A stretch of 64,000 bases of DNA from an uncultured Gemmatimonadales bacterium (lineage in GTDB: Bacteria; Gemmatimonadota; Gemmatimonadetes; Gemmatimonadales; GWC2-71-9), in assembly GCA_963828735.1 (NCBI GenBank), contig CAWHFW010000003.1, positions 32,001 to 96,000 of the forward strand, read 5' to 3'. Positions 2,249 through 58,673 of this stretch are shown here, in pieces. A model generated the notes under the pieces. That model was not told where the DNA came from. It did no database searches and worked only from the letters and a program-made list of their open reading frames with translations. The position numbers were made by a program, and so were the translations under genes. Position 1 is the stretch's first letter. The number at the start of each line of letters is the position of its first letter.

Positions 2249-2368
2249 CCGGGCGCAGGCGGGAGCGGGGCTCGCAGAGGGAGCCTCAGGGCGCACTCAA
2301 CCCCCTGCGCGATCCCACCCCCAGAGCGCCCTGCAGCGACCGGCGCGAGCCCCGCCCCCGTCGGAGCC
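2249..2368 (+). repeat. ~118 bp structured intergenic repeat, copy A
   Basis: Core GCTCGCAGAGGGAGC..CAGGGCGC-loop-GCGCCCTGCAGCGACCGGCGCGAGC shared with four other copies. Confidence 0.9.
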
Positions 2369-2391
2369 GCGCACCCCGACCCACCAGAGCA

Positions 2392-2787
2392 TTACTTCGC
2401 CGCGACGATCCGCTCGAGCACCTTCCGCGCATAGTCCTTGTCCCACTCCGCCAAATTCTTGCGCGCGTACACCTCCACCTTCGTGGTCGCCGTGTCCTGA
2501 CGCTCCATGTGCACGGTCACGTCGAGATCGTCACGCTTTCCCTTGAGATCCCGCTTCGCCCCACCGTCCTCGGTGCTGGACCCCTCCTGGCTGATTCCCA
2601 TGTCCTTCATCACCGACTCCGCGTTCGCCACCACTCGATCGATCGGCACCGCCACCAGGGACTCCACCCCGCGGCTCGTGGCGTAGATCGCGCCCGCCGC
2701 GCCCGCCGCGGCGGCGGCCACACATCCCGTCGCCGCCATCATCACCGCCACCGCCAACACGGCCTGCCGCCAGGACTTGCCTCGCAT
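2392..2787 (-). CDS. Lipoprotein, DUF3568-like
   Basis: AGGAGG RBS before ATG 2787; signal peptide with lipobox-like ATGC followed by AAAAGAAGAIY. Confidence 0.75.
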   Translation of the reverse strand: MRGKSWRQAVLAVAVMMAATGCVAAAAAGAAGAIYATSRGVESLVAVPIDRVVANAESVMKDMGISQEGSSTEDGGAKRDLKGKRDDLDVTVHMERQDTATTKVEVYARKNLAEWDKDYARKVLERIVAAK

Positions 2788-2885
2788 CTCTCCTCCTTCA
2801 TGTTGGCGCCACGGGCGGCGGCCGCGACTTCCCCGGCCCTCCGCCACATGGCATATTTTGGAATACTTCTTTGGAGACCGCACCC

Positions 2886-4008
2886 GTGGCCACGTTCCTC
2901 AAGACCACCGAGATCTCGATCGACGGTGCCCGCACCCTGCCCCGGCCATTCTATACCTCGCCTGAGATCTTCAGCGAGGAGCTGGAACACATTTTCCTGA
3001 AGCGCTGGCTCTGCGTCGGGCGCGAGGACCGGCTCACCAACCCCGGCGACTATTTCGTCCAGGAGATCGGCAAGGAGAGCGTGATCGTCCTCAAGGAGCG
3101 CGAGGGCGGCTACCGGGCGTACTACAACGTCTGCCGCCATCGGGGTACCCGGCTTTGCGAGGAGCACACCGGAAACCTGGGCGGCACCATCCAGTGTCCC
3201 TACCACGCCTGGACCTACGGCCTCGATGGCCACCTCATCGGCGCCCCCTCGACCCAGGAGATCGAAAACTTCGACAAGGCCGACTGGCCGCTCTTTTCCG
3301 TCGCGCTCGCGACCTGGGAAGGCTTCCTCTTCATCAACCTCGCCGAGAAGCCGGAGCCGTTCGACCGAGGCCTGGGCGCCGCTCGTGGGCCGGTTCGCCC
3401 GCTTCAACCTTTCGAACCTCAAGGTCGCCCGCACCATCGAGTACGACGTGAAATCGAACTGGAAGCTGTTGTTCCAGAACTATTCGGAGTGCTACCACTG
3501 CGGCCCGGTGCACCCGGCGCTTTCCAAACTCACGCCCCCGACCAGCGGCGAGAACGACCTGACGGAGGGACCGTTCACCGGCGGCTTCATGGTGATGACG
3601 CGCGGCGCCGAAAGCATGACGATGAGCGGGCGCTCGTGCGGCGTCACGGTGGGCGACCTGCCCGACGAGGACATGAACCGGGTCTACTACTACGCCATTT
3701 TCCCGAACCTGCTGCTGAGCCTGCACCCCGACTACGTGATGTTCCATACCGTCTGGCCCCAGGGTACGGACCGCACGCTCATCAGCTGCTCCTGGCTCTT
3801 CCATCCCGCCACCCTCGGCGACCCGACGTTCAATCCTGGCGACGGGGTCGAGTTCTGGGACATGACCAACAGGCAGGACTGGCACATCTGCGAGCAGAGC
3901 CAGCTCGGAGTCCAGTCGCGCGCGTATCAGCCGGGGCCCTACTCGAAGCGGGAGAGCCTGTCGGTCCAGTTCGACCGCGAGGTGTTGCGGAGTCTCGGGC
4001 GGGAGTAA
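2886..4008 (+). CDS. Rieske non-heme iron oxygenase alpha subunit (choline monooxygenase/GbcA-like), +1 frameshift near 3366
   Basis: CRHRG..CPYH Rieske motif in ORF 2871; NWK..ECYHCGPVHP and QDWHICE in ORF 3226; one extra C in TTCGACCGAGGCC joins them. Confidence 0.9.
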
Positions 4009-4026
4009 GGGCTGGATTGATCTGGG

Positions 4027-4058
4027 ACGAGGGACGTGCCGTGAGGTGCGTCCCTCGT
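4027..4058. repeat. Hairpin ACGAGGGACG..CGTCCCTCGT after Rieske stop (REP-like or terminator)
   Basis: 10 bp inverted repeat followed by TGCTTTG. Confidence 0.55.
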
Positions 4059-4069
4059 TGCTTTGTTGA

Positions 4070-4185
4070 GCTCCGGTGTGGGCCGGCGGGGCTCGCGCCG
4101 GTCGCTGCAGGGCGCTCCGGCAGGGGAGATCACGCAGGGGGGTGAGTGCGCCCTGACGCTCCCTTTGCGAGCCCCGCCGGCCCGG
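4070..4185 (-). repeat. ~118 bp structured intergenic repeat, copy B (inverted)
   Basis: Reverse complement matches copy D closely, including upstream GCTACGTGGCCC. Confidence 0.9.
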
Positions 4186-4336
4186 GCCACGTAGCACGAC
4201 GAGAGATCGTCGGTAGCCGGCGAAATGCCCGTGCCTCCATGGGGAGCGCGCGCTGAGCGCGCGGGCAGCGCCGCGCGTTGGCAGGAGCAGGCAGCAGCCT
4301 TGGAACGGATGGTCTGGCGCGGCTGGGATCGGAGCT

Positions 4337-4456
4337 CCGGGCGCAGGCGGGGGCGACGCTCGCAGAGGGAGCGTCAGGGCGCACTCCAACCCTTGCGCGA
4401 TCCCACCCCCCGGAGCGCCCTGCAGCGACCGGCGCGAGCGTCGCCCCCGCCGGAGC
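4337..4456 (+). repeat. ~118 bp structured intergenic repeat, copy C
   Basis: Perfect 18 bp outer stem GGCGGGGGCGACGCTCGC/GCGAGCGTCGCCCCCGCC around shared core. Confidence 0.9.
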
Positions 4457-4473
4457 CGCGCACCCCGACCCCG

Positions 4474-5643
4474 TCAGACCATGTAGTTCACCGGCGGATT
4501 CTCGAGCTGCAGGATCGCGCGGTCGATGCGAAACGGCTCGATGTTGTGCTCGGTGCGCCCGTCGATCGCGAGCTCGGACAGGATCCGCCCGATCAGCGAC
4601 GCGAACTTGTAGCCGTGCCCTCCTCCCACGCCCACGACCACGTTGGGATCGGACGGCAGTCGGTCGACCACGAAGTCGCGGTCGGGCGTCAGGGTGTACA
4701 GGCAGGTCTTGGTGTAGATGATCGGGCCGAGCGCCTTCGGGATGTACTTCCGGAGGAACTCCATCGTGCGCTCGAGCGCCGCCTGGTCCGGCTCGAAGCT
4801 CCGCGTGACGGGATCCGTCTCGAGGCCGCCGGCGTCCTGCCCCACCTTGGGACCGGCCTCGCCGAAGACGGGGAACCCGTAGAAGCACGGGTCGTCCATC
4901 CAGATCCAGACCGGGAACCGCCCAGGCTCGAACTGGGCCGCGTGCGGCGTCGCGAAGTAGGTGACCTGCTCCTTGGTGACCCGGAGCGGCAGCCGCATGC
5001 CGACATGCGTGAGGGCGCCGTTGGACCAGGCCCCCGCCGCGACGACCAGGCGGCGACAGCGATACACCGCGCCCCCGGCCGCGACCTCGATCTCCCCGTT
5101 CACGGACCTGATCCGCTCGACCGGCGAGCGGTCCACCAGCGTCGCCCCGTGCTCCCGCGCCATCCGAGCGTGCGCCGCGTTGCCGCGGGCGGCCATCGCG
5201 ATCCCGCTGTCCGGCTGGAACAGGCCCTGGATATCGTCGGTCACCTCCAGCACCGGCCAGCGCCGGCGGATCTCCGCCGCGTCGAGGTGCTCGTAGGCGA
5301 CCCCCGCCGCGTCCATGCTGCCGCTGTAGTTGGTGAGCGGGATAGCGCTCTCGCGCGGGGCGAAGTCGAGCCCTCCGGTCTTGAGCACGAGCTGCTCGCC
5401 CGAGTCCTTCTCGATCTCGGCCCAGGCGCGGTACGCGTGCTTGGCGAGCTCGACGTAGCCGGGCGTGTGATACGAAAGCCGGATGATGCGCGAGTGGTCC
5501 TGCGACTCGCCGCGCACGTGCCCCAGCTCGAACTGCTCGAGCCCGAGCACGTCGGCGCCCGCTCGGCGCGAGAGCCAGTAGGCCGCCGCACTGCCCCAGC
5601 CACCGAGGCCGAGGACGATGTACTCGTAGTCACGCCGGCTCAC
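4474..5643 (-). CDS. solA: N-methyl-L-tryptophan oxidase / monomeric sarcosine oxidase family flavoprotein
   Basis: GLGGWG Rossmann motif, SQDHSRIIR, TCLYTLTPD (FAD-linked Cys position), GHGYKF. Confidence 0.88.
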   Translation of the reverse strand: MSRRDYEYIVLGLGGWGSAAAYWLSRRAGADVLGLEQFELGHVRGESQDHSRIIRLSYHTPGYVELAKHAYRAWAEIEKDSGEQLVLKTGGLDFAPRESAIPLTNYSGSMDAAGVAYEHLDAAEIRRRWPVLEVTDDIQGLFQPDSGIAMAARGNAAHARMAREHGATLVDRSPVERIRSVNGEIEVAAGGAVYRCRRLVVAAGAWSNGALTHVGMRLPLRVTKEQVTYFATPHAAQFEPGRFPVWIWMDDPCFYGFPVFGEAGPKVGQDAGGLETDPVTRSFEPDQAALERTMEFLRKYIPKALGPIIYTKTCLYTLTPDRDFVVDRLPSDPNVVVGVGGGHGYKFASLIGRILSELAIDGRTEHNIEPFRIDRAILQLENPPVNYMV

Positions 5644-6743
5644 GTCGTACCGCGGTCCATGCGCTCCCCGATGTACCGGCGAATGTCCAGGCTCCAGCTT
5701 TCCATCGGCGCGTAGTAGCCGCGCTGGAACACCCGCGACGACATCCCGCGCTGCACCGACTCGCAGATCGCCCAGTCCTGGCGGTTGACCAGGTCCCAGA
5801 ACTCCACGACGTCGGCCGGCGCGAAGTCGGGCTTCGCGATCTCGGAGGGGTGGAAGAGGAACTCGTTCACGATGGTCGTCCGGTCGGGGCCGTCTGGCCG
5901 GACGTAGAACGCGGCCACGTGCTCAGCGCTGAGGCTCAGCATCAGGGTGGGGTAGACGAGCTCGCCCTTGTGCCGGATGCGCTCGTCCTCGCTCAGGCCC
6001 TCGAATGGAAGCCGGTTGGTCGTGCCGGTGGCCGTGAAGGTCCAGGCGCCGTCGCGATGGGGGATGCCGCGCTCCCAATCCAGCTCGGAGCCGCCGCGCT
6101 GCTTGAACGCGGGCACGAGGCGGCAGAGCTCGGGATGCACCGGCCCGCAGTGGTAGCACTCGTTGTAGTTCTCGAGCACCACCTTCCAGTTGGCGTGGAT
6201 CTCGTACTCGATCCGGTGCGCCACGCGAAGCTCGGCGAGCGGGTAGCGGGCGAGCCGCTCGGGCACGGCGTCCAGCTGCGTCGCGAGGGTGTGACCGCGG
6301 CGCTCGGCGTCGGCGGGCGTGAGGTGGACGAAGACGAAGCCGCCCCACGTGTCGACGCCGACGGGATGGAGCGACAGCTGGCCGCGAGCGAGCCCGTCGG
6401 ACTCCTCGAGGAACGGCGCGGTGCGGAGCTCGCCTTCGAGCGTATAGGTCCAGGAGTGGTAGGGGCAGCGGATGCCGCCGGCGAACGTGCCCGTGCCGCA
6501 GTCCGGTACCAGCTGCGACCCGCGATGGCGGCAGACGTTGTAGTGCGCCGCAAGACGGCCAGCGCGCGTCCGCACGAGGAGGATGCTCTCGCCCGCGACG
6601 TTCTTCACGGCGTAGTCGCCCGGCGAGGCCAGCTCCTCCTCGCGCCCGACGACGAACCACTCGCGCCAGAAGATCCGTTCCTGCTCATGCGCGAACACCT
6701 CGGGCGACAGATACGACTCGCGGGGCAGCGTGCGCTCGAGCAC
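5640..6743 (-). CDS. Second Rieske oxygenase alpha subunit
   Basis: CRHRG..CPYH, NWK..NECYHCGPVHP, QDWAICE; GTG start next to cupin stop; 4 bp overlap with solA. Confidence 0.92.
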   Translation of the reverse strand: MLERTLPRESYLSPEVFAHEQERIFWREWFVVGREEELASPGDYAVKNVAGESILLVRTRAGRLAAHYNVCRHRGSQLVPDCGTGTFAGGIRCPYHSWTYTLEGELRTAPFLEESDGLARGQLSLHPVGVDTWGGFVFVHLTPADAERRGHTLATQLDAVPERLARYPLAELRVAHRIEYEIHANWKVVLENYNECYHCGPVHPELCRLVPAFKQRGGSELDWERGIPHRDGAWTFTATGTTNRLPFEGLSEDERIRHKGELVYPTLMLSLSAEHVAAFYVRPDGPDRTTIVNEFLFHPSEIAKPDFAPADVVEFWDLVNRQDWAICESVQRGMSSRVFQRGYYAPMESWSLDIRRYIGERMDRGTT

Positions 6744-6744
6744 C

Positions 6745-7074
6745 TCAGGCCTCCCCGCCCTCGGGTCCGTAGAAGAACACCCACACGGCGAGATCGTCGC
6801 TGAACTCCTCGAACCGGTGCTCGACACCGGCCGCGACGAACAGCACGTCGCCCCGCTCGAACGAATGGCGCTCCGCGCCGTTCCGAAACGTCCCGCTGCC
6901 CTCGATCACAACGTACACTTCGTCCCGCGTATGCGGCGTCTGCGGGTCCGTGCCCCGCGGCGCGTACAGCTCGACACTCAGGGTGCCATGCCGGAACAGC
7001 TCGACGAACCGCTCCCCCTCCGGTCCCGGCAAGCGCGCGAGCCCCTGTGCGACCGTCAGGTAGTTCTCAGGCAT
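6745..7074 (-). CDS. Cupin domain protein
   Basis: QTPHTRDEVYVV and GDVLFVAAGVEHRF cupin motifs. Confidence 0.88.
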   Translation of the reverse strand: MPENYLTVAQGLARLPGPEGERFVELFRHGTLSVELYAPRGTDPQTPHTRDEVYVVIEGSGTFRNGAERHSFERGDVLFVAAGVEHRFEEFSDDLAVWVFFYGPEGGEA

Positions 7075-7203
7075 ATCCCCCCAGGATCTCCCGTGCCGCA
7101 GTTCGGCGTCTACACCAGGTCGCTGCCGCACCGTCAGCCCGCGCCACGCACCAGCGCGCGAGCCCAACCCGACCTCCGAGCATCCCGGCCTGGCTACGTG
7201 GCC

Positions 7204-7319
7204 CCGGGCCGGCGGGGCTCGCAGAGGGAGCGTCAGGGCGCGCTCACCCCCTTGCGCGATCCCACCCGCCGAGCGCCCTGCAGCGACCGGCGCGAGCCCC
7301 GCCGGCCCCCCAGCGGAGC
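7204..7319 (+). repeat. ~118 bp structured intergenic repeat, copy D
   Basis: Perfect 17 bp outer stem GGGCCGGCGGGGCTCGC/GCGAGCCCCGCCGGCCC around shared core. Confidence 0.9.
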
Positions 7320-7324
7320 CTGGC

Positions 7325-8918
7325 CTACGCTCGCAGGTCGCGCACGATCTCGCGGGCCGCGTTGTAGCCGCACGCACCCATCACCCCACCCCCCGGATGC
7401 GTCGCCGCCCCGCACAGATAGAGCCCGCGCACCGGCGTCCGGTAGTCCGCGTACCCCGGCACCGGCCGCATGAACGACAGGCTGCTGAGCGACATCACCC
7501 CCTGCATGATGTTCCCGCCGGTGAGCCCGAACCGCTGCTCCAGGTCCACCGGCGACAGGATCTGCCGCGCGATGACCGAGCGCTTGAAGTTCGGCGCGAA
7601 CTGGCTCATCAGGTCGAAGCACCGGTCCGCGTACTTCTCCTTCTCGGCCTCGAGCGACAGGCCGGGCGCGAGCTTGTACGGGAAGTACTGGGTGAACATC
7701 GACATCACGTACTGGCCGCGCGGCGCGAGCGTATCGTCCAGCACCGACGGGATCGTGGCCTCGATGATCGGCTGCGCCGACGGCCGGCCGTACTTGGCGT
7801 CGTCGTAGGCGCGCTCGATGTACTCCATCGTCGGCGAGATGTGGATCGTGCCCCGATGCTGCGGGCCCGGCGCGGTGCCGGGCACGGACGTGAAGTCCGG
7901 CAGCTCGCTCAGCGCGACGTTGATCTTGCAGCTCGCGCTCGCGTAGTCGATGTTGCGCACCGCCTCCACGAACTCCGCCGGCAGATCGCCGTTCTGCATC
8001 AGCTTGAGGAAGGTGACGTTCGCGTCCACGCCCGACGCGACCCGCTGGCGCGCGGATCTCGGTCCCGTCGGCCAGCGCCACGCCCTGCACGACGCCGTTC
8101 TTGACCAGGATCCGCGCCACCTCGGCGTTGGTCCGGATCTCGGCGCCGCGCTCCCGCGCCGCGGCCGCGATCGCGTTGCTGACGCCGCCCATGCCGCCGC
8201 GCACGTAGCCCCAGACGCCCCGCACCCCGTTGCACTCGCCCATGACGTGATGGAACAGCACGTAGGCCGTCCCCGGCATCGACGGGGACGCCATCGCGCC
8301 GATGATCGCGTCGGTCGCCAGCGTCACCTTGAGCTGCTCGCTCTCGAACCAGCGGTCCAGGATCGGCGTGGCCGCGCCGGTCAGGATCTCGATCGCCTTC
8401 TGCCCTTCGGTCCCCAGGCGCACGAAGGCGAGGCCCAGCTTCGCGAGCTGCGCCAGGTTGCCCGGGCGGAATGACCACGGGTTGGGCGGCGTCATGACGA
8501 GCGTCGGCTCGAGGAAATCGGCCACGCGCTCGAGCATCGCCTCGTACCTCGGCAGCGCCTCGGCGTCCTTGGTGGAGAACTTCGAGATCTCGCGATGCGT
8601 CTGCGCCTTGTCCGGGCCGAGCATGAGCGAGCGGCCATCGGGGAACGGGGTGAACGAGGAGGGACTCCGCGGCAGCATCTCGAAGCCGTGCCGCGCGAGC
8701 TCGAGATCGCGGATGATCTCGGGCCGGAGCAGGCTGTTCACGTACGCGGCGGTCGAGACCTTGAAGCCGGGCCACACTTCCTCGGTGACGCACGCGCCGC
8801 CGAGCACGTCGCGACGCTCGAGGACGATCGTCTTGAGGCCCGCGCGGGCGGCGTAGGCCGCGGTCACGAGCCCGTTGTGGCCACCGCCGATGATGATGAG
8901 ATCGTAGGAAACGGACAT
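7325..8918 (-). CDS. Phytoene dehydrogenase-like (PYROXD2-type) FAD oxidoreductase, frameshift near 8048
   Basis: GGGHNGL..LGGACVTEE in one frame, GLYLCGAATHPGGGVMG in another; removing one base gives IRAQRVASGVDA. Confidence 0.88.
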
Positions 8919-9000
8919 GAGATTCGCGGGGGTTGAGGTGGCGAATCTTACCCGCGAGGGGAAGGGGGTGGAAGGGGAAAAGCGAAGCGGGGAGCGGAAA

Positions 9001-9096
9001 CGGTGAGCGGGAAACGGTGAGCGGTGAGCGGTAAGCGGGAACAGCTCACCGAAGTAGTCTGGTGTGCTCTTCCCGCTCACTGCTCACCGCTCACCG
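9001..9096. repeat. Heptamer (CGGTGAG) tandem repeats forming a ~31 bp imperfect hairpin after the TBDT stop
   Basis: 9015-9045 is a near reverse complement of 9066-9096. Confidence 0.75.
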
Positions 9097-9100
9097 CCTC

Positions 9101-11923: not shown

Positions 11924-12081
11924 GAAGCCTCCGGGGAGCCTTGGAGTTGACGCCGCGTGGGGCTGGCGGTGAAACACGTTGCTGCGGCGGGACGTCCGGG
12001 GACGAGCGATCGGGACGTTGGCCCGAGGATATTCGTTGCGGCTCAGTACGTCAAGCGGCCCGCGCGAGAGGTTTTGACAAC

Positions 12082-12098
12082 TTGGCCGCCTCTCTGCA
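12082..12098 (+). promoter_or_regulatory. Possible sigma-54 promoter (GG-N10-GC) upstream of susC-like gene
   Basis: TTGGCCGCCTCTCTGCA has correct -24/-12 spacing but several mismatches. Confidence 0.3.
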
Positions 12099-12189
12099 CA
12101 TTGGCTGAAGCCGTTCCCATCGCCTTGCCCCGACCGTACGCTCGCGCCGTCGCACACCCCGGGCAGGCCTCGCTCCGAGGAGAAGGCCC

Positions 12190-15303: not shown

Positions 15304-15316
15304 GGAGACGCCTCCC

Positions 15317-16660: not shown

Positions 16661-16692
16661 CCGGCCCGCGATTGGTGGGTGTCTGAACGAAG

Positions 16693-16725
16693 CGAAGGGG
16701 CATGCCTGGTGGGCATGCCCCTTCG
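16693..16725. terminator. Hairpin between convergent genes, likely terminator
   Basis: CGAAGGGGCATGCC-N5-GGCATGCCCCTTCG, 14 bp stem. Confidence 0.7.
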
Positions 16726-16755
16726 TCGTCTGCGCGGGACGTGATCCGCGCGGGC

Positions 16756-18180: not shown

Positions 18181-18231
18181 GGAAGGCTCCCTGGGGATCG
18201 TTGGTGGTGATGGAACGGGCCGGACGAGCCG

Positions 18232-40963: not shown

Positions 40964-40972
40964 CCGGGGAAT

Positions 40973-42400: not shown

Positions 42401-42417
42401 CGGCCCCGGCACCTGAA

Positions 42418-42975: not shown

Positions 42976-43236
42976 CGGTCTGAAGCTCCGGAGAACGGTC
43001 GGTCGGCGGACGCCGGGGGTGGCGCCGCGGAGGTGGAAAATACACGGCGGCGGGCGAAGCGACAGTCACGGGTGACTGCTGTCACCGCCGGCGTCCGGCG
43101 CCCCGGCTAGGTTCGGCCGAACCCGCCGGGCGACGTCCCTGCCCGGCGACAGTCATATCACGGCCAACCAGCGAGAGCCGAATGCGCCAGGTGTCCCACG
43201 GTTAGCACGGCACCCCACGCGGAGCCCGAGCTGCCG

Positions 43237-45461: not shown

Positions 45462-45512
45462 GCGGGCGCGCCGGACGATCACGCGATCGTCCGGCCGCCG
45501 GACTCTCCTGCC

Positions 45513-45788
45513 TCACCCTCCCGCGATCGCCGCCACCACCGTGATCTCATCCCCGGAACGCACCGGCGTCGCGAACCCGCTGCGAAACCGGATGTCCTCG
45601 TCGTTCAGATAGTACGTGACGAACGGATAAGGTCCGCCCGTCTCGTCGCGCAGTCTCGGCGCGAGCCGCGGAAAGCGGTCCGCGATGGCGGCGACGACTT
45701 CACCGAGCGTCTCGCCGGTGGCATCGATCGTGGCCTGGCCGTCCGCCAGGCGGGCCAGCACGGTGGGCAGGCTAAAGGTCACGGCCAT
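45513..45788 (-). CDS. MoaD/ThiS/CysO-like sulfur carrier protein
   Basis: 91 aa beta-grasp pattern, LNDEDIRF, C-terminal IAGG. Confidence 0.92.
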   Translation of the reverse strand: MAVTFSLPTVLARLADGQATIDATGETLGEVVAAIADRFPRLAPRLRDETGGPYPFVTYYLNDEDIRFRSGFATPVRSGDEITVVAAIAGG

Positions 45789-47061
45789 ACAGAGCCTCCA
45801 GTTCGCGGATGCGCGGCGCGATGATCGGAGCGTCGGGCAGGGCGCCGTGCAGTGCCTCGACGGTCTTGAGTCCGTTGCCGGTGATGCAGAGGACGAGCTC
45901 GTCCTCGGGGGCCAATCTTCCGTCCTTTGCCAGGGCGAGCGCGGCCGCCACCGTGACACCGCCCGCGGTTTCGGTGAAGACACCGGTCGTCTCGGCCAGC
46001 AGCTTGATCCCCTCGACCAGCGCGGCATCGGATACGCCCGTGGCCCAACCGCCGCTCCGGCGGATCGCGCTCGCCGCGAACCCGCCGTCCGCGGGATTCC
46101 CGATCGCGATCGAGCGCGCGATGGTATCGGGCACCACCGGCGACACGTGCTCGCCGCCCCGCTCCACGAGGTGCACGATCGGGGCGCATCCCGCGGCCTG
46201 CGCGCCGTACAGCCGCGGCGCAGCGCCGGACACCAGGCCGGCGTCGGTGAATTCCCGGAAGCCCTTCTCGAGCTTGGTCAGGAGCGAGCCCCCCGCCATC
46301 GGAGCGACGACTGCCGTCGGGAGCCGCCAGCCCAGCTGCTCGGCGATCTCGAACGCCATGGTCTTCGAGCCTTCGCCGTAGTAGCTCCGGAGGTTGATGT
46401 TGACGAGGCCCCACCCGTAGCGATCGGCCACCTGCGCGCAGAGTCGGTTCACGTCGTCGTAGGTGCCGCGCACGCGCACGAGCCGTGGGTTGTACACCGC
46501 GGTCCCGACGACCTTGCCGAGCTCGAGATCGTGCGGGATGAAGATCCAAGCCGGCAAGCCGGCGCGGGCGGCCTGCGCCGCGACCGCGTTGGCCAGATTG
46601 CCGGTCGAGGCGCACCCCACCACCTCGAGGCCCAGCCCGAGCGCGGCGTTGAGGGCCGACGCGACGACCCGGTCCTTGAAGCTGAGCGATGGGTGGCTCA
46701 CGGCGTCGTTCTTGACCCACACCCGCGCCACGCCGAGCCGACGGGCGAGGGCGGGAGCGTCGAGCAGCGGGGTGAACCCGCTGTCGAGCGAGACCACAGG
46801 CTCGCCATCGAACGGCAGCCACTCCCGGTAGCGCCAGAGGGACGGTGCGCGGGCCGCGATCGTCGCGGCATCGGGGAGCTTTCGCCCGACGTCGTACGCG
46901 GGCTCTAGCGGGCCGAGACATTCATCGCAGGTTGCCGAGGCGGCGGCAGGCTGCGGTGTCCCGCAGAGTCGGCAGACGAGGGAGAGCGGCCGAGGACCGC
47001 GCGGCCGTGCGACGGCTTCGGAGGAAGTCGGGTCGAGCGGAAGGTCGAGAAGCGTCGTCAT
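45772..47061 (-). CDS. Threonine synthase-like PLP enzyme
   Basis: N-terminal CxxC..CxxC, SLWRY, SFKDR (PLP Lys), ASTGN, EGSKT, ITGNGLK. Confidence 0.92.
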   Translation of the reverse strand: MTTLLDLPLDPTSSEAVARPRGPRPLSLVCRLCGTPQPAAASATCDECLGPLEPAYDVGRKLPDAATIAARAPSLWRYREWLPFDGEPVVSLDSGFTPLLDAPALARRLGVARVWVKNDAVSHPSLSFKDRVVASALNAALGLGLEVVGCASTGNLANAVAAQAARAGLPAWIFIPHDLELGKVVGTAVYNPRLVRVRGTYDDVNRLCAQVADRYGWGLVNINLRSYYGEGSKTMAFEIAEQLGWRLPTAVVAPMAGGSLLTKLEKGFREFTDAGLVSGAAPRLYGAQAAGCAPIVHLVERGGEHVSPVVPDTIARSIAIGNPADGGFAASAIRRSGGWATGVSDAALVEGIKLLAETTGVFTETAGGVTVAAALALAKDGRLAPEDELVLCITGNGLKTVEALHGALPDAPIIAPRIRELEALYGRDL

Positions 47062-47115
47062 TGCGTGAGTTCCCGCCCCGGGCTCCCGAAGCGTCTCTCA
47101 GCGCCGAGCCAAATG

Positions 47116-47151
47116 AAAAAGCGCCCGGTGCCAAAAAGACACTCGGGACGC
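47116..47151 (-). terminator. Intrinsic terminator in leader (riboswitch expression platform)
   Basis: Minus strand GCGUCCCGAGUGUC-UUUUU-GGCACCGGGCGC-UUUUU. Confidence 0.8.
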
Positions 47152-47154
47152 GAG

Positions 47155-47206
47155 GCTTTTTAGCATTTGTTTAACGTGGCTGCAATAGGCCGCAAATTGC
47201 CACGAA
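47155..47206 (-). ncRNA. SAM-II (SAM_alpha) riboswitch
   Basis: UUCGUGGCAAUUUGCGGCCUAUUGCAGCCACGUUAAACAAAUGCUAAAAAG: P1 CGUGGC/GCCACG, pseudoknot AUUUG/CAAAU, UUGCA and GCUAAA hallmarks. Confidence 0.87.
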
Positions 47207-47276
47207 GTCAGTTGTCTGTGTCAGTGTACGTAATCGGGTGGGGGGACGCAAGAGGGTTCGATCGGCCGACCGCGTC

Positions 47277-50002: not shown

Positions 50003-50942
50003 CGGCGACCTCCCGCGCGGGCGACGCCTCGCGCCATCCCACGAGCAACGCGCGCGCATCGCCAACCAGCACGACGGCCGCGGACGCGTCCGGGCGGCCG
50101 CGCGCGAACTTGACGAGGTCCGCCTCGCCGAGCAGGGCGGCGCAACCCCGGCGCAACGCACCGGCGCTCAGATGGGGCGGCAATGCCCGAAGCACTTCCG
50201 TGCTCGTTCGCTCGCGGGCCGGGATGCCCTCCGCCGCCGCGAGGTAGTCGCGCAGCGCGTCCGCCACGGCCGTGTAGTGCCGCGCGAGGTCTCCGGTCGC
50301 GGCCCAGCCCGCACCTTCGAGCTCGGCCAGGCGCTCGAGCGCCCGCTGGAACGGATCGGCCGCCTCGCTCGCCGCCACGTCCACGGTGGCGAGCGCCGGC
50401 GCCGTGACCAGTGCGCGCCGGCTCCGGCGCCGGAACGCCAGCACCGTGACCAGCATGGCGGACAGGGCGAGCGCGACGTAGCGAGGGTCGGGTCCGGGGA
50501 GCTCGACGATCTCCTTGATGTCCCGCAGCGTCGGGCCGCCGCCCGAGGTGAGCACCGGCGCGATCTCGATCACCACCGGATCGCTCCGAACGGTGCCGTG
50601 AAGGATCACGGCGCCCCGACGAAAATTGATCGCGAACGAGGGGATCGTCTGGCGTCCGGGACGGTAGAAGGCGAGACGCGCTCTCGCCTCGAGGACGCGG
50701 TTGGCGGTGCGCCGCATCGAGTCGACGGACAGAAGCCGGACCCCGTCGGCCAGGGTCACCTCCGGATGCGGCGTGGACTCGAGTAGCGCATCACCTTCGT
50801 ACAGCCGCAGCACCAGCCGCAGGCCGACCGGGTCTCCGACGGTGATACGGCCGGTGTCGGGAATGGCCTCGAACGTCTGCGCGCTCGCCGATGAGACGGC
50901 GATGGCCCCGAACAGCGCGAGGATCAGGACGGCGCCGCGCAT
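49989..50942 (-). CDS. MoxR-operon membrane protein (DUF4381-like), paralog 2
   Basis: Signal peptide, TVGD, LRDIKE, TM helix, ERTSTE, ADLVKFA. Confidence 0.8.
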   Translation of the reverse strand: MRGAVLILALFGAIAVSSASAQTFEAIPDTGRITVGDPVGLRLVLRLYEGDALLESTPHPEVTLADGVRLLSVDSMRRTANRVLEARARLAFYRPGRQTIPSFAINFRRGAVILHGTVRSDPVVIEIAPVLTSGGGPTLRDIKEIVELPGPDPRYVALALSAMLVTVLAFRRRSRRALVTAPALATVDVAASEAADPFQRALERLAELEGAGWAATGDLARHYTAVADALRDYLAAAEGIPARERTSTEVLRALPPHLSAGALRRGCAALLGEADLVKFARGRPDASAAVVLVGDARALLVGWREASPAREVADAVR

Positions 50943-51969
50943 CAGCCCGCCACTCCTTCGGTGGCCGCGGCCTTGAGCGCGCCGCTCCGCTGCCACGCCG
51001 TGAGGAGGTCGCGCGCCGCACGAAGGAACCCATCCGCCTGGCCCGGTCCCGGTCGCAGGCGTGCGAACTTGACGAGATCGGCCGCGTCGAACACGCCCTC
51101 GAACCGTCGTGCGCCGTCTCCGGCAAGCAGCGTCGGAGGCAGCACCCAGCGCAGCTCCGACGTCGTGCGCTCGCGAGCGGGAATTCCGTAGGCTTCGAGG
51201 TAATCGCGAACCGCGTCCGTGATGTCCGCGTAGTGGCGCGACACATCCTGCGCGGCCCAGTGCTCACGCTCGATGGCGGCCAGCCGTGCCATCGCCTGAT
51301 CGTAGGGATCGGGCGGCGGCGGTGGGGAACCCTCCTCCGCGGGCGCGATGGGCACCTCCGTGGGCGCGGACTGGCGCGCCCGCCACGCCAGCCATCCGGC
51401 GACTCCGAGTGCGGCAAATCCCAACAGCAGCTCGAGCGGCGGTCCGCCGCGGGACGCGAGGGGTTCTTTAATGTCCCTCAGCGTCGCCGAGGAGCCTCCG
51501 GCGAGCACCGGCACGACCTCCACGCTCGCGCTGTCGCTCGACAGCGTCCCGCGCGACAGTCCCTTCACCGATCGCATGAACGGCAGCTGGAACACGGGCA
51601 CGGCCTGCCGTCCGGGACGATAGAAGGCGATGCGCGCGCGCCCGACGAAGATGCGGTCCGGCTGGCGCTGCAGCTTCTCGACCGAGAAGATGCGAATCCA
51701 GTCGGGCGGCGTGAGTGCGGGCTTGGGAACCGTGTCGAACAGGAGATCACGCTCGTCGAGCCGTACCCGAAACGCGACGGTAATCGTGTCGCCGACCGTC
51801 GGCCGAGCCGTTTCGGGGGTGACGTCCCAGTGCTGTCCGTGGAGCTGTGCGGCGATCGAGCGGGGAGACGCGACGAGAGCCGCTAGGCCGATCCCGATGG
51901 CCAAGGCCTGGCGCCCGGGAATCCCCAGGACCGACCGGACGATGCGCGCGCGCGACCATTCCCCGCCCG

Positions 51970-51979
<10 letters not shown>
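50942..51979 (-). CDS. MoxR-operon membrane protein (DUF4381-like), paralog 1
   Basis: TVGD, AFYRPGRQ, LRDIKE, TM helix, ERTTSE, ADLVKFA; start approximate. Confidence 0.8.
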
Positions 51980-52847
<868 letters not shown>

Positions 52848-52851
<4 letters not shown>

Positions 52852-53873
52852 GGCACCGGCACCGCCTCGAAGATCCGTCGCAGCAGCGCGTCCGGCCCCA
52901 CGCCTTCGGCATCGGCGCGGTACGTGAGGATGACGCGATGGCGGAGCACGTCGGGGCCGAGGGCCTTGATGTCGTCGGGCGTGACGTACGCGCGCCCCCG
53001 AATGAAGGCGTGCGCCTTGGCGGCGCGCAGGAGGAAGATCGCCGCCCGGGGCGAGGCCCCGAACTCGATGAGCGGCGCGAGGTCCGCCAGCCCGGCGTCG
53101 GCCGGGCGGCGCGTCGCGCCGACGAGGTCGAGCACGTATTCCTTGACCCGCTCGTCGGTGTACACCTGCTGTACCACGCGCCGGGCGCCGAGCACCCGCG
53201 CGGGATCCATCACGCACGTGGCCTCCGGCTCGTCCGGCCCGGTCATCCGGTCCAGCACCTCCCGCTCCTCCCGCCGTTCCGGATAGGTGACGACCAGCTT
53301 GAACATGAAGCGGTCCACCTGCGCCTCGGGCAGCGGATAGGTGCCCTCGTGCTCGATCGGGTTCTGCGTCGCGAGGACCAGGAACAGCTCGGGTAGCGGA
53401 TAGGTCTGCCCGCCGATCGTCACCTGCTTCTCCTGCATCGCCTCGAGCAGCGCGCTCTGCACCTTGGCCGGCGCGCGGTTGATCTCGTCGGCGAGCAGCA
53501 GATTGGTGAAGATGGGACCCTTCTGGACGGTGAAGTCCCCGCTCCGCTGGTTGTAGATCATCGTGCCGATGAGGTCGGCCGGGAGCAGGTCGGGCGTGAA
53601 CTGGATGCGGTGGAACGCCGCCGCGATCGTGCCGGCGAGCGTCCGGATGGAGAGGGTCTTGGCCAGCCCCGGCACGCCCTCGAGCAGCACGTGACCGTCC
53701 GCCAGCAGCCCGATCAACAGCCGCTCGAGCATCGCGTGCTGCCCCACGATGACGCGGCCGAGCTCCGTCATGAGCTCGCCCACCAGCCGGCTCTCCTGCG
53801 CGATCAGTCCGGCATCAGGCAACGCGGAGGCCGCGCGGGGATCGGCCGCGAAGCGCTCGGGAAGGGTTGTCAT
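52848..53873 (-). CDS. moxR: MoxR-family AAA+ ATPase
   Basis: EGVPGLAKT, RIQFTPDLLPAD, DEINRAPAKVQSALLEAMQE, ATQNPIE. Confidence 0.95.
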
Positions 53874-53887
53874 GTTGGGGGAATCTA

Positions 53888-55240
53888 CTACGGCCAATCC
53901 ACGAGCGGGGCGGGTGGGGGACGCACGACGGCCACGGCGAGCGCGCCGGTGGCTGCGAACACTTCCGCGCGATGCCGCCGCTGGACGACCGCCCCCCACA
54001 CGTAGTCGCCGCGCTCGTAGCGCGCCCCGGAGTACCAGAACGTGATCGCGTCGGTCACCGGATCGTACTCGAAGGTCGTGCGATAGACGATGTCCTGGAG
54101 CGTCGGCGTGGCCCCCCTGGTGAGCACCGCGTTCGGCAGCACCTCCCACACGAGCCCGTCCGCGCTCTCGGCGATGTAGACCGCCGGCGTCGCGCAGTCG
54201 GCCTCCGTCTTGGCGTTGTAGACCGCCCAGAACACCTGCCGGCTCGCAATCCATTGTACGTCGATGTGCCAGGGCGAGAGGCCCGGCTGCTTGAGCGCCA
54301 CCCGGGCCGGCGTTCCCCAATGAAGCCCGTCCGCGGAGCGGCGTGCGTCCACCGTGGTGGCGGCGGCACCACATCCTGTCGTCCCGGTGTTGACGGCGAA
54401 CATCCACCAGTCGTCGGCCGCTCGCCGGACGATGCTCGGAGACACCAGCTCGTGGTTCGGGGCGCGCGCCACCTCGAGCGGCGCGGTCCATTGGCGTCCA
54501 TCCGCGGTTCGGACCAGCATCACGAGATTCGCGTCGATGACCTGGCGATAGTAGAGCCAGAGCTCGCCGAGTTCGGGCACGTAGACCAGGTCGGGGTCGG
54601 AGAGATAGCCGGTGTCCGGCAGCACCACCGGATTTGGAACGCCGTTGGTCAGCGACCACAGGTCGCGGCGAGCGCCGTCGAACAGCGACGGGTTCTCGAA
54701 GGACTGGTCCCCATGAGGATACGGCGTGATCGCGAGATGGAAGGGTTGCCCGAAGGCCCCGTCCGGCGTCGCGGCGTAATCCGGATGCACCACCTGGTGC
54801 GAGCCGTCGTAGGTCGGCACGTCGATCGGGAACAGCTCGCCGAACGGCAGCGCCTGGTCGCTCTCCGCGACGGCGGTGAAGATCGCTGGCTCGAGTCCTG
54901 GCAGGGTCGCCTCGACGCTACGCTGGCCCTCGCTCTTCCCGAGCACCCAGCGCGCCTCCGCGTGGCCCTCCTCGTCGGTCGCTGGATCGAGCGGAATGAC
55001 CCGATCATCGCCGACGGCGCGCCATTCGACCTTTACGCCGCGCATCGGCCGGCCGTCGCCGTCGACGACGGTCACGACGATCGGCGTCGGCAGCAGCGTT
55101 CCGATTTGAGCGATCTGTGCGTCGCCGTTGGTCACCTCCAACCGCGCGGGCATCACCGGCCCCGCACCGTCGGCGCACGCCATGGACGACGCAGACAGCA
55201 ACGCGATCGCGTTGGCGACACGATTCGAAACGATGCGCAT
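53888..55240 (-). CDS. Lipoprotein, Ig-like domain plus probable beta-propeller glycoside-hydrolase-like domain
   Basis: SMAC lipobox, NGDAQ Ig-like start, HPD..ENP..SDPD, repeated S.DG..W boxes. Confidence 0.72.
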   Translation of the reverse strand: MRIVSNRVANAIALLSASSMACADGAGPVMPARLEVTNGDAQIAQIGTLLPTPIVVTVVDGDGRPMRGVKVEWRAVGDDRVIPLDPATDEEGHAEARWVLGKSEGQRSVEATLPGLEPAIFTAVAESDQALPFGELFPIDVPTYDGSHQVVHPDYAATPDGAFGQPFHLAITPYPHGDQSFENPSLFDGARRDLWSLTNGVPNPVVLPDTGYLSDPDLVYVPELGELWLYYRQVIDANLVMLVRTADGRQWTAPLEVARAPNHELVSPSIVRRAADDWWMFAVNTGTTGCGAAATTVDARRSADGLHWGTPARVALKQPGLSPWHIDVQWIASRQVFWAVYNAKTEADCATPAVYIAESADGLVWEVLPNAVLTRGATPTLQDIVYRTTFEYDPVTDAITFWYSGARYERGDYVWGAVVQRRHRAEVFAATGALAVAVVRPPPAPLVDWP

Positions 55241-55852
55241 GGGCGATCCGGTGAAAGCGGAGCAACGACGGTTCGTTCGTCGTCCGACGCGCGCTCCTGC
55301 GCGCCGGTTTCGCGCGAAACCGCGGCGACGACCTCGCCGTCAGGAGAGAGATTGTGCCTCTGGCTCTCCGGTCACTCGAGCTTTGACCTCACACATGCGC
55401 GGAACGTTGCTTCGAAACCCCCGCGGCAGTCCTGGTCGCCAGCGGCGTTACCTACGTTGGGAGTGGCGATGAGCAGCTGTACGCCCTCGACGCGAGCGGC
55501 GAGGAGCAGTGGCGGTTCGTGGCGAAGGGGCGGCAGGGAGTTCGAAAACGGCGAAGAACGGTCACCGTGGGACATCTCGGGTTGGTGGGAGGCGAGCGGG
55601 CGGCAGATACGACTGCGGTGACCGAGGCGCTCGGACTGGATGGGAGCGCGGTCTCGCGGCGGCATCAGTGAACCGGGACGCCGGCGGCGAGGGCCCCGGG
55701 TTCGTCCGCGTCAACGGGTCAGGAACGAGCGGCGATCCGATTCCGGACGTCGTGCGGATTCAAACGGTGGCGGAGTACCGACGGGTGAGATGAAGGGTCG
55801 AGGAATCAGACGAGGCGACGGGACAGCCGGAAGCGCGGGCACCCGGAACCGA

Positions 55853-55901
55853 GCGAGGGATCTCCTGCCCCGGGTTCGACCCCGGCGAGAAGATCCCTCG
55901 T
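55853..55901. repeat. REP-like hairpin CGAGGGATCT..AGATCCCTCG nested in larger stem 55783-55925
   Basis: 10 bp perfect arms plus inner GC-rich hairpin with TTCG loop. Confidence 0.65.
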
Positions 55902-55943
55902 TGCTGTCCGGCCTTCACCTCACCCCGCTCGTCCCAAACCCTC

Positions 55944-56219
55944 TCACGTCGGTCCGTTGAACGCCGGATCGCTCGCCCGCGTCCGCAGGTCGGTCTCGGC
56001 CCCGCGGTACCACCCGCCCCGGAACTCGAAGTGGCTCCCGTCCAGAATTCTCGAATTGAGCGCGTCGGTGCCCTGCTGCTGTACCTGCCACAGCAGCACC
56101 TTGGCGCCCATCTCGGCCGCGGTTTCCCAGATATCGGGAACCAGCGGCGGGTAGAGATCGGCGAATTCCGGCTTGAGCCTGGCTTCCCGAGGCGTGAACT
56201 CCATCCCTACCTCCAGCAT
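55944..56219 (-). CDS. Hypothetical protein
   Basis: Protein-like composition (REARLKPEFADLYP..HFEFRGG); start may be 56204. Confidence 0.65.
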   Translation of the reverse strand: MLEVGMEFTPREARLKPEFADLYPPLVPDIWETAAEMGAKVLLWQVQQQGTDALNSRILDGSHFEFRGGWYRGAETDLRTRASDPAFNGPT

Positions 56220-56373
56220 GATCGAGGCGAGCCCGCGCGGTCCGGGCGACGAGAGCTAGGATAATGCAGCCCGACCGGCAGAGCCACCAGGGGCCGTGCG
56301 ACCGGTGCGCGCCCCTCCCGTCCCTTCCCTGACACCGCCACTATTCGGGTCGCCTCATCGGGACACGTTCGTC

Positions 56374-57411
56374 ATGCGCATTGTGGTGACCTTCGACACT
56401 CCGTACGACGGGTGGGAGCACCCGGATCACGAGCGCCAGATGGCGACCGAGGTTGCGGCGTGGAAACACGATGAGCCCGAGATGGAGTACCAGATCGCCG
56501 ACGCCCTGCGGCTCAAGGGGCACGACGTGATGCTGGTCGGTGTGCGCAACGACCTGCAGTACCTGGTTCGGTGCCTCGAGGAGATCCGACCGGACCTGGT
56601 CTTCAACGGGGTCGAGGCCTTCCACGGCCACGCCGGCCTCGAGTACATGGTCCCCGGCATGCTCGAAGCCGAGGGTTACCGCTATACCGGGTCCCCGCCG
56701 CTCTCGCTGTTGGTGTCGCGCAACAAGGCCATGAGCAAGAAAATCCTCGCGTTCCACGGGATCCGGGTTCCTGCCTTCGTCACCTGCCGGCCAGGCGAGG
56801 CCCTGACCGTGCCCCCGGATCTCCGGTTTCCGCTCATCGTCAAGCCGCTCCAGACCGACGCTTCGGCGGGGATCGCGCAGGCGTCGGTGGTGCAGGACCA
56901 GTCGTCGCTCGCCGACCGGGTCGCCATGATGCACGATCGGTTCGACCAGCCCGCGATCGCCGAGGAGTTCGTGGACGGCCGCGAGCTTTACGTGAGCCTG
57001 CTCGGCAACGGCAACGACCTCGACATCCTGCCGATCACCGAGATGGTGTTTGACAAACGGAGGACCCGTCCGGAGGAGCGTATCGCCACCCAGAGCGCGA
57101 AGTGGGACGAGGACTATCGGTCGCGGAAGGGCATTCGCAACGTGTTCGCGAGGCCCCTGGCGCGTCCGGTACGGCACCGGATCGAGGATATCTGCCGGAC
57201 GGCCTTCCGCGCGCTCTGGTTGCGGGACTACGCCCGGCTCGACGTGCGCGTCGCGGCCGACGGCGAGGTCTGGGTACTCGAGGCCAACGCCAACCCCTTC
57301 ATCAGCTACGGGCACGACATGGCCAACGCGGCACAAAAGGCCGGGATGGACTACTACGAGTTCATCCAGCGGCTGGTCGACGAGGCGATCGCACGGTATG
57401 AGCATGCGTAG
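56374..57411 (+). CDS. D-Ala-D-Ala ligase-like ATP-grasp enzyme
   Basis: DLVFN..E, YTGS, NKAMSK, FPLIVKP..DAS.GI, EEFVDGRE, YARLD.R, LEANANP. Confidence 0.9.
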   Translation: MRIVVTFDTPYDGWEHPDHERQMATEVAAWKHDEPEMEYQIADALRLKGHDVMLVGVRNDLQYLVRCLEEIRPDLVFNGVEAFHGHAGLEYMVPGMLEAEGYRYTGSPPLSLLVSRNKAMSKKILAFHGIRVPAFVTCRPGEALTVPPDLRFPLIVKPLQTDASAGIAQASVVQDQSSLADRVAMMHDRFDQPAIAEEFVDGRELYVSLLGNGNDLDILPITEMVFDKRRTRPEERIATQSAKWDEDYRSRKGIRNVFARPLARPVRHRIEDICRTAFRALWLRDYARLDVRVAADGEVWVLEANANPFISYGHDMANAAQKAGMDYYEFIQRLVDEAIARYEHA

Positions 57412-58411
57412 CAGGTCGCGCCATCGTCCGGCACCGCGCGCGGAGTACCGCTGCGTCTGCGGGCATGGGCTCAAGAAGTACTGGGCCTACTGCGGCAACT
57501 GCGGCCGGGCCCAGCAGTGGAAGGATCTGGGCCAGGTGACCGGCGCGGAATGCTTCAGCTGCGGTTGGGTGGTGAGCGACCGGTTCTCCCACTGCCCGTG
57601 GTGCGACGCCGACATTCACGAGGAGGGCTACTCCAGCGAGCGGCCGCTGAAGGCGCCGCGAGGCTTCCGCATGGACGCTCGCTGCGACTGGGGATGCGGC
57701 GGCGGCGTCCAGTACCCCATGCCCTATTGCCCCTGGTGCGGGCGGCCGCAGAGCTGGAATGAGGAAGACGTGTTCGAGGGCGAATGCCCGCACTGCGATC
57801 GAGGGGTGGACGACTGGATGAACATCTGCCCCTGGTGCGGCCTCGACGCCACGGGACGGGACCTGATCCCGAGGGCGCTCACCCGCGTGCGCCGGCTGCT
57901 CCTGGTCTCGCGGATCCGCGATTGGGGCTATCGCGTGCTGCTCCGCCCTGGCGTGTCGGGCGTGGACCCGCGGTATCCAAAGGCGGTCGAGATCGAGCAG
58001 CGCTACGTCATCGGCAACAAGCGCCCCGACGAGATCTCGTGGACCATGCTGGTCGGCCTCATCACCCACGAGCTCGGCCACAGCTTCCTGTATCACCACT
58101 GGGACTGGGCCAGGAGTCGGAGCTTCCGCCGCGCCTTCGGCGAGGTGGACAAGGCCTACCGCGGCATGGACAACACCTGGGTGTACTTCCAGCGCCGCCG
58201 CATCGCCATTGCTCCGCGTGACTTCGTGAGCACCTACGCGGCGAAACATCCCCAGGAAGACTTCGCCGAGGTCTTCCGTTTCTACGTCACGCGCCGGGGT
58301 CGCCTGCGCGACCTGTTCGCGGAATTCGGGCAGAAGCGGAAGGGCGTGATCCTCTATGAGAAGTTCCTGGTCCTGCACGACTTCGTGCGGGCACTGCGTG
58401 GGTGGGGCTGA
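57398..58411 (+). CDS. Putative zinc metallopeptidase with four N-terminal zinc-ribbon units
   Basis: Eight Cys pairs; HELGH; YAAKHPQEDFAE. Confidence 0.85.
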   Translation: MSMRSRSRHRPAPRAEYRCVCGHGLKKYWAYCGNCGRAQQWKDLGQVTGAECFSCGWVVSDRFSHCPWCDADIHEEGYSSERPLKAPRGFRMDARCDWGCGGGVQYPMPYCPWCGRPQSWNEEDVFEGECPHCDRGVDDWMNICPWCGLDATGRDLIPRALTRVRRLLLVSRIRDWGYRVLLRPGVSGVDPRYPKAVEIEQRYVIGNKRPDEISWTMLVGLITHELGHSFLYHHWDWARSRSFRRAFGEVDKAYRGMDNTWVYFQRRRIAIAPRDFVSTYAAKHPQEDFAEVFRFYVTRRGRLRDLFAEFGQKRKGVILYEKFLVLHDFVRALRGWG

Positions 58412-58554
58412 GGAGCGCGGTCAGACGGGTCAGCGCGGGCCACGATCCCGAACCCAACGAGGGACCTCCTTCGCGGGTGTCCACCCGGCTAGGGAGATCC
58501 CTCATCTTGCCTGAGTAGGCATCTTGCCTGCGTAGCCTCCCACACACCGGAGCG

Positions 58555-58673
58555 CCGGGCGCAGGCGGGGGTGCCGCTCGCAGAGGGAGCGTCAGCGCGC
58601 GCTCACCTCACTGCGAGATCTCAAACGCCGAGCGCGCTGCAGCGACCGGCGCGAGCGGCACCTCCGCCGGAGC
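58555..58673 (+). repeat. ~118 bp structured intergenic repeat, copy E (most diverged)
   Basis: Same core with compensatory changes CAGCGCGC/GCGCGCTG and GGTGCC/GGCACC. Confidence 0.88.

What the first reader, a model, noticed from the sequence alone, without database searches (positions are those of the whole stretch)
2249..58673. Five-copy ~118 bp intergenic element with compensatory base changes in two nested stems
Seen: copies at 2249-2368 (+), 4070-4185 (-), 4337-4456 (+), 7204-7319 (+) and 58555-58673 (+). Layout: CCGGGC, a 17-18 bp outer stem ending GCTCGC, A(G/A)AGGGAGC, inner stem CAGGGCGC, a ~31 nt C-rich loop with invariant TGCGnGATC, GCGCCCTG, CAGCGACCGGC, GCGAGC plus outer stem, then CGGAGC. 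The outer stem differs between copies but stays paired (GCGAC/GTCGC in C, GTGCC/GGCAC in E, CCGGCGGG/CCCGCCGG in B and D). The inner stem changes on both sides in E (CAGCGCGC/GCGCGCTG). GGGAGC/GCGACC can pair with tandem G.A mismatches. Two flank subtypes exist (A, C, E and B, D). Inference: the fold is under selection, so this is a structured RNA or an ssDNA substrate (REP/MITE-like) that I cannot assign to a known family. No mobilising enzyme lies in the window.
Basis: partly seen in the sequence, partly recalled or inferred. Interest (0 to 1): 0.85.

Follow-up and report, generated by a model that had tools for sequence, protein, structure and literature searches.

The report
Strand-specific hairpin repeat in Gemmatimonadales
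A roughly 120-140-base hairpin-forming repeat sits between genes in one family of uncultured soil bacteria and keeps the fold of one particular strand, so it is likely a small copy-and-spread DNA element read as single-stranded DNA by an enzyme that has not been found.

Summary
The five copies are real. They belong to a repeat family with about 31 copies in this genome and matches in 85 of 103 genomes of the genus; a phylum draw found it only in the window's own family. Stems co-vary strongly. G·T wobbles outnumber A·C 180 to 33 on one strand, whichever way neighbouring genes point, so one strand's fold is kept. Copies cluster by genome, not by site, and 76 of 94 matching sites are empty in this genome, which points to turnover. 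There is no Rfam match, GTAG foot, attC core or target duplication. Only 1 of 111 candidate mobiliser loci had a copy nearby. Best reading: a REP/REPIN-like single-stranded DNA element with an unknown mobiliser; an RNA role is not excluded. Not found in the papers searched, but this scan already reported what is likely the same family on other contigs of this genome (e1-9935346, e1-8417121, e1-9985431).

The parts
2249..2367 (+). Copy A (A/C/E end type), single; its 3' end lies 25 bp from the stop of a convergent small lipoprotein-like gene
4070..4185 (-). Copy B (B/D end type), left partner of a head-to-head pair; its 3' end lies 62 bp from the stop of a convergent Rieske-type gene (name by inspection)
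4186..4336 (.). 151-bp spacer of the B/C head-to-head pair; no sigma-70-like promoter found
4337..4456 (+). Copy C, right partner of the pair; 18 bp from the stop of a convergent FAD oxidoreductase (Pfam DAO)
4346..4363 (+). Copy C outer stem, 5' arm (pairs with 4434-4451); sequence varies freely between copies while pairing is kept
4364..4382 (+). Copy C conserved 5' core: 3x3 purine loop, two pairs, tandem G·A, two pairs, 2x2 loop, CAG and inner stem
4383..4414 (+). Copy C terminal loop; sequence is genome- and subtype-specific, not family-wide
4415..4433 (+). Copy C conserved 3' core (partner strand of 4364-4382)
7204..7319 (+). Copy D (B/D end type), single; 6 bp from the stop of a convergent oxidoreductase gene
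58555..58673 (+). Copy E, single; inner stem changed on both sides; 33 bp from the stop of a convergent FAD oxidoreductase whose 3' end is 78% identical to the gene next to D

Best explanation
The element is a multicopy intergenic hairpin repeat of one Gemmatimonadales family, and it is likely a non-autonomous REP/REPIN-like mobile DNA that an unidentified enzyme would recognise as a folded single strand and copy in trans. Shown: copy number, restricted range, co-varying stems, a conserved core of purine mismatches, a one-strand wobble bias, frequent head-to-head pairs, gain or loss at matching sites, and likeness of copies within a genome. Inferred: the named strand folds while single-stranded (replication or cruciform), the mismatch core is the protein-recognition site, the variable stems only need to pair, and new copies land in or survive at gene ends. 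A strand-specific HUH-type tyrosine transposase is the best guess for the enzyme, by analogy only.
For: Ten short-loop and 21 long-loop copies in G000; a model built on shorter-loop copies also finds the long-loop ones. 85 of 103 genus genomes match; 22 of 71 in the same family and 0 of 79 in other families. Covariation score 0.501 against 0.134 shuffled and at most 0.084 slid; 24 of 32 pairs change on both sides. G·T 180 against A·C 33 in 163 copies; 29 against 9 in 31 copies with dissimilar arms, p=0.002. The bias holds for convergent (97:23), co-oriented (54:9), sense-3'UTR (47:10) and divergent (32:5) neighbours. Nearest neighbour by inner stem and loop lies in the same genome for 73 of 84 copies, 11 expected. 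76 of 94 colinear sites are empty in G000. 57 head-to-head pairs and no other arrangement in that set. TnpA-REP reads one REP strand and needs stem mismatches (PMC8266576, passages); REP heterodimers are common (PMC3733652, section 14).
Against: No mobiliser was found. 0 of 69 loci of Y1_Tnp, GIY-YIG, four-helix-bundle and tyrosine-recombinase genes carry a copy; 1 of 42 GxxExxY and integron-integrase loci does, and that gene has its own unrelated arms. G000 has no Y1_Tnp, nor do 5 of the 6 genomes with 19 or more copies. No GTAG foot (5 of 222) and no target duplication. Singles pair as well as dimers (13.0 against 13.4 of 14, p=0.15), unlike decaying REP singlets. 18 of 94 sites are filled in both species, and 12 of 12 loci of one oxidoreductase family carry a copy (selected loci, not de-duplicated), which also fits long retention with gene conversion. 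G·T and sheared G·A pairs suit RNA as well as DNA. No empty site at nucleotide resolution was obtained. Some same-strand tandem pairs and one apparent tail-to-tail pair exist.
Confidence: 0.55

Rival explanations
1. The fold acts as RNA: each copy would give a small structured transcript, or the family would spread through an RNA intermediate.
For: One-strand wobble bias and G·A-rich internal loops are typical of RNA; the RNA energy model gives the nested fold for 4 of 5 window copies, while the DNA model keeps the outer stem but often rearranges the core.
Against: Mostly antisense to the adjacent 3' gene. Pair spacers are 33-303 bp, median 26% A+T, and 0 of 57 have a TAnnnT on both strands; none in the B/C spacer. 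No enrichment of GNRA or UNCG loops. Terminal loop not conserved family-wide. No Rfam hit.
Confidence: 0.2
2. A host-kept element at gene ends (protein-binding site or 3' mRNA protector, as proposed for BIMEs) that is homogenised and occasionally moved by gene conversion or recombination, with no dedicated mobiliser.
For: Median 30 bp from convergent stop codons for the short-loop type; the same sites are filled in several species by different subtypes; no mobiliser found.
Against: An mRNA protector should favour the transcribed strand, yet the bias is on the other strand in those cases. Most matching sites are empty and 18 of 103 genus genomes had no match.
Confidence: 0.15
3. The head-to-head pair is a polar recombination site, working like an attC site for an unknown recombinase, that would shuffle accessory genes in kinase-rich islands.
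For: Eight same-polarity pairs separate kinase, AMP-binding, toxin-antitoxin-like and lipoprotein genes in 17 kb of L223; G000 C7 has a like array, and shared cargo (a two-gene module, a kinase) has different neighbours. Size and structure-over-sequence conservation resemble attC (PMC2727003, passages).
Against: No R-box pair in 222 copies; G000 has no integron integrase; no copy in three integrase-bearing regions (L570, L573, L575). Of 120 sites with both flanks mapped, 0 joined two element-adjacent G000 places and 3 joined one. Most copies flank housekeeping genes. Homologous recombination between repeats could give the same shuffling.
Confidence: 0.1

Closest known systems
REP / BIME / REPIN elements with RAYT (TnpA-REP), especially group 2 long REPs with an irregular stem (PMC8266576 passages; PMC3116915 passages)
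   Same: Intergenic, multicopy, lineage-restricted imperfect hairpin; one strand distinguished; conserved mismatches in the stem; inverted heterodimers; compensatory changes.
   Different: About 120-140 nt against 20-42 nt; no GTAG foot; no RAYT gene flanked by it; G000 lacks Y1_Tnp; singles are not decayed; partners of a pair each fold on their own.
CGTC-tagged REPs (PMC3733652, abstract and sections 6, 14, 16)
   Same: Holds a conserved CGTC followed by a stem; head-to-head dimers dominate; no dedicated transposase known.
   Different: CGTC lies inside a long outer stem, not at an unpaired end; loop 27-45 nt against 4-5; the stem does not start with the AT pair; far longer.
Integron attC sites (PMC2727003 passages)
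   Same: Similar size (57-142 nt), structure kept over sequence, one strand used, sometimes in arrays between accessory genes.
   Different: No AAC/GTT R boxes, symmetric loops instead of extra-helical bases, head-to-head pairs, cargo on either strand, not found in integrase-linked regions.
MITEs derived from insertion sequences (own knowledge)
   Same: Short, non-coding, inverted ends, gained or lost between genomes.
   Different: Ends vary in sequence instead of being the conserved part; no target-site duplication signal; no parent IS found.

Membership tests
GTAG REP / RAYT system | Unpaired GTAG at one end | tested here: not met
   5 of 222 copies have GTAG near an end
GTAG REP / RAYT system | Length 20-40 bp | tested here: not met
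   116-140 nt
GTAG REP / RAYT system | RAYT gene flanked by the repeat | tested here: not met
   0 of 30 Y1_Tnp loci fetched, of 61 matches in 50 genomes; none in G000
GTAG REP / RAYT system | Strand-specific imperfect hairpin with conserved stem mismatches | tested here: met
GTAG REP / RAYT system | Cleavage and strand transfer by the transposase | not testable with these tools
   needs biochemistry
REPIN | Inverted doublets over-represented | tested here: met
   104 of 222 copies have an opposite-strand partner on the 5' side; no random-placement model was run
REPIN | Singlets more decayed than doublets | tested here: not met
   13.0 against 13.4 paired of 14, 69 against 71 copies, p=0.15; stem pairing was measured, not sequence identity
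CGTC REP | Terminal unpaired CGTC, 8-9 bp stem, 4-5 nt loop | tested here: not met
   CGTC is internal and the loop is 27 nt or more
attC site | R boxes with AAC and GTT | tested here: not met
   0 of 222 with the full pair (heptamer consensus recalled, AAC/GTT in PMC2727003 passage)
attC site | Array linked to an integron integrase | tested here: not met
   G000 has none over cut-off; 0 of 12 integrase loci and 0 of 3 longer regions carry a copy; 32 of 103 genus genomes have an integrase
MITE | Target-site duplication | tested here: inconclusive
   Longest flanking direct repeat 5.3 against 5.2 control, 116 copies, ends approximate; no clean empty site
Rfam RNA family | Match at gathering score | tested here: not met
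Structured ncRNA | Discrete transcript of the folding strand | not testable with these tools
   only unstranded contigs were available

The most novel reading that the evidence does not exclude
The hairpin is the substrate of an undescribed structure-specific recombinase. Singles spread like REPs, while head-to-head pairs act as polar junctions that stack and re-order accessory genes (kinases, toxin-antitoxin modules, lipoproteins) into integron-like arrays without attC sites or an integron integrase.
Probability: 0.12. Interest if true: 0.8.

Novelty: new variant of a known kind. Interest (0 to 1): 0.45.

Why it matters
It adds a long, strand-specific hairpin repeat that fails the defining tests of REP, attC and Rfam families, in an abundant uncultured soil lineage. 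Its mismatch core is sharply defined, so it can serve as bait to find an unknown ssDNA-processing enzyme. If the pairs shuffle cargo, it would be a new gene-cassette system. If not, it is one more orphan REP-like family, and several such families share these intergenic regions.

Tried and rejected
Rfam: nothing on the element. Mobiliser by neighbourhood: no transposase, nuclease or recombinase family recurred among neighbours; most were judged from N-termini and recalled short motifs, and only 32+8 proteins went through Pfam/NCBIfam; part of the listing was cut. Genus Y1_Tnp sits at a fixed site beside ATP-synthase genes with other repeats. DUF559: 0 of 5 high-copy genomes. GIY-YIG and four-helix-bundle genes are present but not flanked. 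GxxExxY genes have their own heptad arms. The 830-bp gap between two heads in L289 holds no recognisable gene and includes another repeat. DNA contigs laid on the window showed no listed joint skipping a copy; only 15 of 96 joints were shown and cover was patchy. RNA contigs: two low-depth pieces overlap copies B and C, unstranded, so no conclusion. Empty sites in G000 were too diverged to fix a target. Pattern hits in Roseateles, Lachnospiraceae and one viral contig have no model match and are chance. SRP and kink-turn likeness were considered from memory and dropped: the register of the co-varying inner stem does not fit and Rfam gave no hit. GNA-triloop enrichment as a DNA signature was weak (9 on the minus strand against 2.1 shuffled) and is not used.
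Full report
Observation. The five copies are at the stated places and parse with the stated layout. A covariance model finds these five and nothing else of note in the window. In all five, the 3' end lies 6-62 bp from the stop codon of a convergent gene. B and C are a head-to-head pair. Rfam has no match on the element.

Extent in the genome. The window is G000:C3:32001-96000. A profile of the five copies finds 10 strong copies, 8 within 73 kb of C3 and 2 on C5. A second, long-loop subfamily has 21 copies and two fragments, clustered on C7 (16-41 kb), C3 (234-248 kb) and C5 (2686-2702 kb); the four on C3 may be two copies doubled by an inverted duplication. The model built on shorter-loop copies also scores the long-loop ones, so this is one family.

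Range. A core pattern gave 117 loci in the part of the genome collection scanned (43 of 64 parts); 115 are Gemmatimonadota records from 42 assemblies. The two others and a single viral hit have no model match. The model matches 85 of 103 genomes of the genus with 1-32 copies each, capped at 32 scored candidates. In a phylum draw it matches 22 of 71 genomes of the same family and 0 of 79 of other families; pattern hits labelled Gemmatimonadaceae or Gemmatimonas do score, so rare copies or mis-binned contigs exist outside.

Anatomy. From the base: an outer stem of about 17-25 pairs with free sequence, a 3x3 purine-rich loop (GNA opposite GNA in 129 of 216), two pairs, a tandem G·A, two pairs, a 2x2 loop, invariant CAG/CTG, a variable inner stem and a terminal loop. 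In 77 aligned copies, 24 of 32 pairs change on both sides and the covariation score is 0.501 against 0.134 shuffled. These 77 were picked from 222 for good outer-stem pairing, shorter loops and diversity, so the 88% paired figure is biased, and the tool warns that kin can exceed the shuffles. The tandem G·A is replaced by Watson-Crick pairs almost only on both sides at once.

Which strand. With a filter blind to wobbles, outer stems hold 180 G·T against 33 A·C on the named strand; 102 copies lean that way and 11 the other, of 163 parsed from 222. Among 31 copies with dissimilar arms it is 29 against 9. The bias is the same whichever way the neighbours run, so transcription-linked mutation does not explain it. 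The purine mismatches would be pyrimidine mismatches on the other strand. One strand's fold is therefore kept; these data do not say whether as DNA or RNA.

Context. On the 3' side a gene is convergent in 129 cases and co-oriented in 65; on the 5' side lies an opposite-strand partner in 104, a co-oriented gene in 53 and a divergent gene in 35. This argues against a riboswitch or 3'-UTR RNA. All 57 close pairs in that set are head-to-head; later searches also showed some same-strand pairs and one apparent tail-to-tail pair. Spacers show no paired promoter signal.

Turnover. Of 270 element blocks from other genomes, 150 lacked a mappable flank, 76 mapped to an empty G000 site, 18 to a filled one and 26 were not colinear. 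Copies at the window's own sites in other genomes are 0.48-0.72 identical to the window copy, no closer than to other G000 copies, while G000 copies average 0.83 among themselves; 73 of 84 nearest neighbours lie in the same genome, 11 expected. This fits repeated insertion at favoured sites or concerted evolution; I cannot separate them. No target duplication was seen.

Mobiliser. None found. G000 lacks Y1_Tnp, DUF559 and an integron integrase. 0 of 69 and 1 of 42 candidate loci (about 1.5 kb flanks) carry a copy, and the one case is a GxxExxY gene with its own arms. Neighbours of several hundred copies are housekeeping or accessory genes. An enzyme acting in trans from an unflanked gene is not excluded.

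Arrays. Long-loop pairs form same-polarity arrays between kinases, lipoproteins and toxin-antitoxin-like genes in L223/L224 and G000 C7, with shared cargo in different order. The nucleotide test found no junction joining two element-adjacent G000 places, so shuffling at the element is not shown.

Comparison with print. PMC3733652 (abstract, sections 6, 14, 16): REPs are 20-40 bp, tagged GTAG or CGTC, often heterodimers, and CGTC types lack a transposase. PMC8266576 (passages): TnpA-REP is strand-specific and needs GTAG and stem mismatches. PMC3116915 (passages): doublets are the unit and singlets decay. PMC2727003 (passages): attC features. No supplements were read; repeat lists there could bear on novelty. 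Four searches for a Gemmatimonadota repeat or RNA of this kind found nothing relevant in the listings; subscription papers are not covered.

Earlier scan notes. Three notes on other contigs of this genome describe what is likely the long-loop subfamily and reach a similar reading. They are unchecked AI notes and not independent support; my strand, pair and array results were computed before I read them. What this report adds is the link between dispersed short-loop copies and arrayed long-loop copies, the gene-direction control and the wider mobiliser screen.

Verdict. A real, apparently undescribed, strand-specific hairpin repeat that works like a REP/REPIN but is not a member of that family by its defining features. 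ssDNA mobile element 0.55, RNA 0.2, host-kept element with gene conversion 0.15, cassette site 0.1. Interest 0.45.

Noticed in passing
window 697-726: Short TGTC-tagged hairpin after the first kinase gene, fitting the CGTC REP description in PMC3733652 by eye.
   Followed up: no
window 4026-4059: A separate 15-pair hairpin beside copy B, scored terminator-like; similar GAGGGAC-armed hairpins lie upstream of copy E and of the copy at G000 C3:24574. Several repeat families share these gaps.
   Followed up: no
window 47140-47213 (-): Rfam SAM_alpha riboswitch hit (42.5 bits, gathering 36) upstream of a threonine-synthase-like gene at 45772-47061.
   Followed up: partly
window 2888-4008 and 7325-9080: The Rieske-type gene and the oxidoreductase gene appear frameshifted, as do many genes in this assembly; likely long-read errors.
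   Followed up: no
G000 C3:234621-247740: Inverted duplication bounded by element pairs, with duplicated genes inside and outside; real inversion or fold-back assembly artefact.
   Followed up: no
G000 C5 beyond about 2703900: Gene content and codon use change abruptly (lolA-, trxB-, infA-, clpA-like by recalled names); possible foreign sequence in the assembly.
   Followed up: no
L193-L222: A mostly single-copy IS200-like Y1 transposase in 50 of 103 genus genomes, usually between ATP-synthase genes and a peptidase-like gene, with its own short inverted repeats.
   Followed up: partly
L010 and L337, upstream of the element: A third hairpin family shares this element's 3' tail and outer-end motif but has a different interior, so the ends may be modular.
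   Followed up: no
G000 C5:2686352 and 2698479, C7:31576; L015, L032, L035, L036: Eight distinct copies carry a small side hairpin with a mostly TNC loop in place of the 2x2 loop's 5' side.
   Followed up: partly
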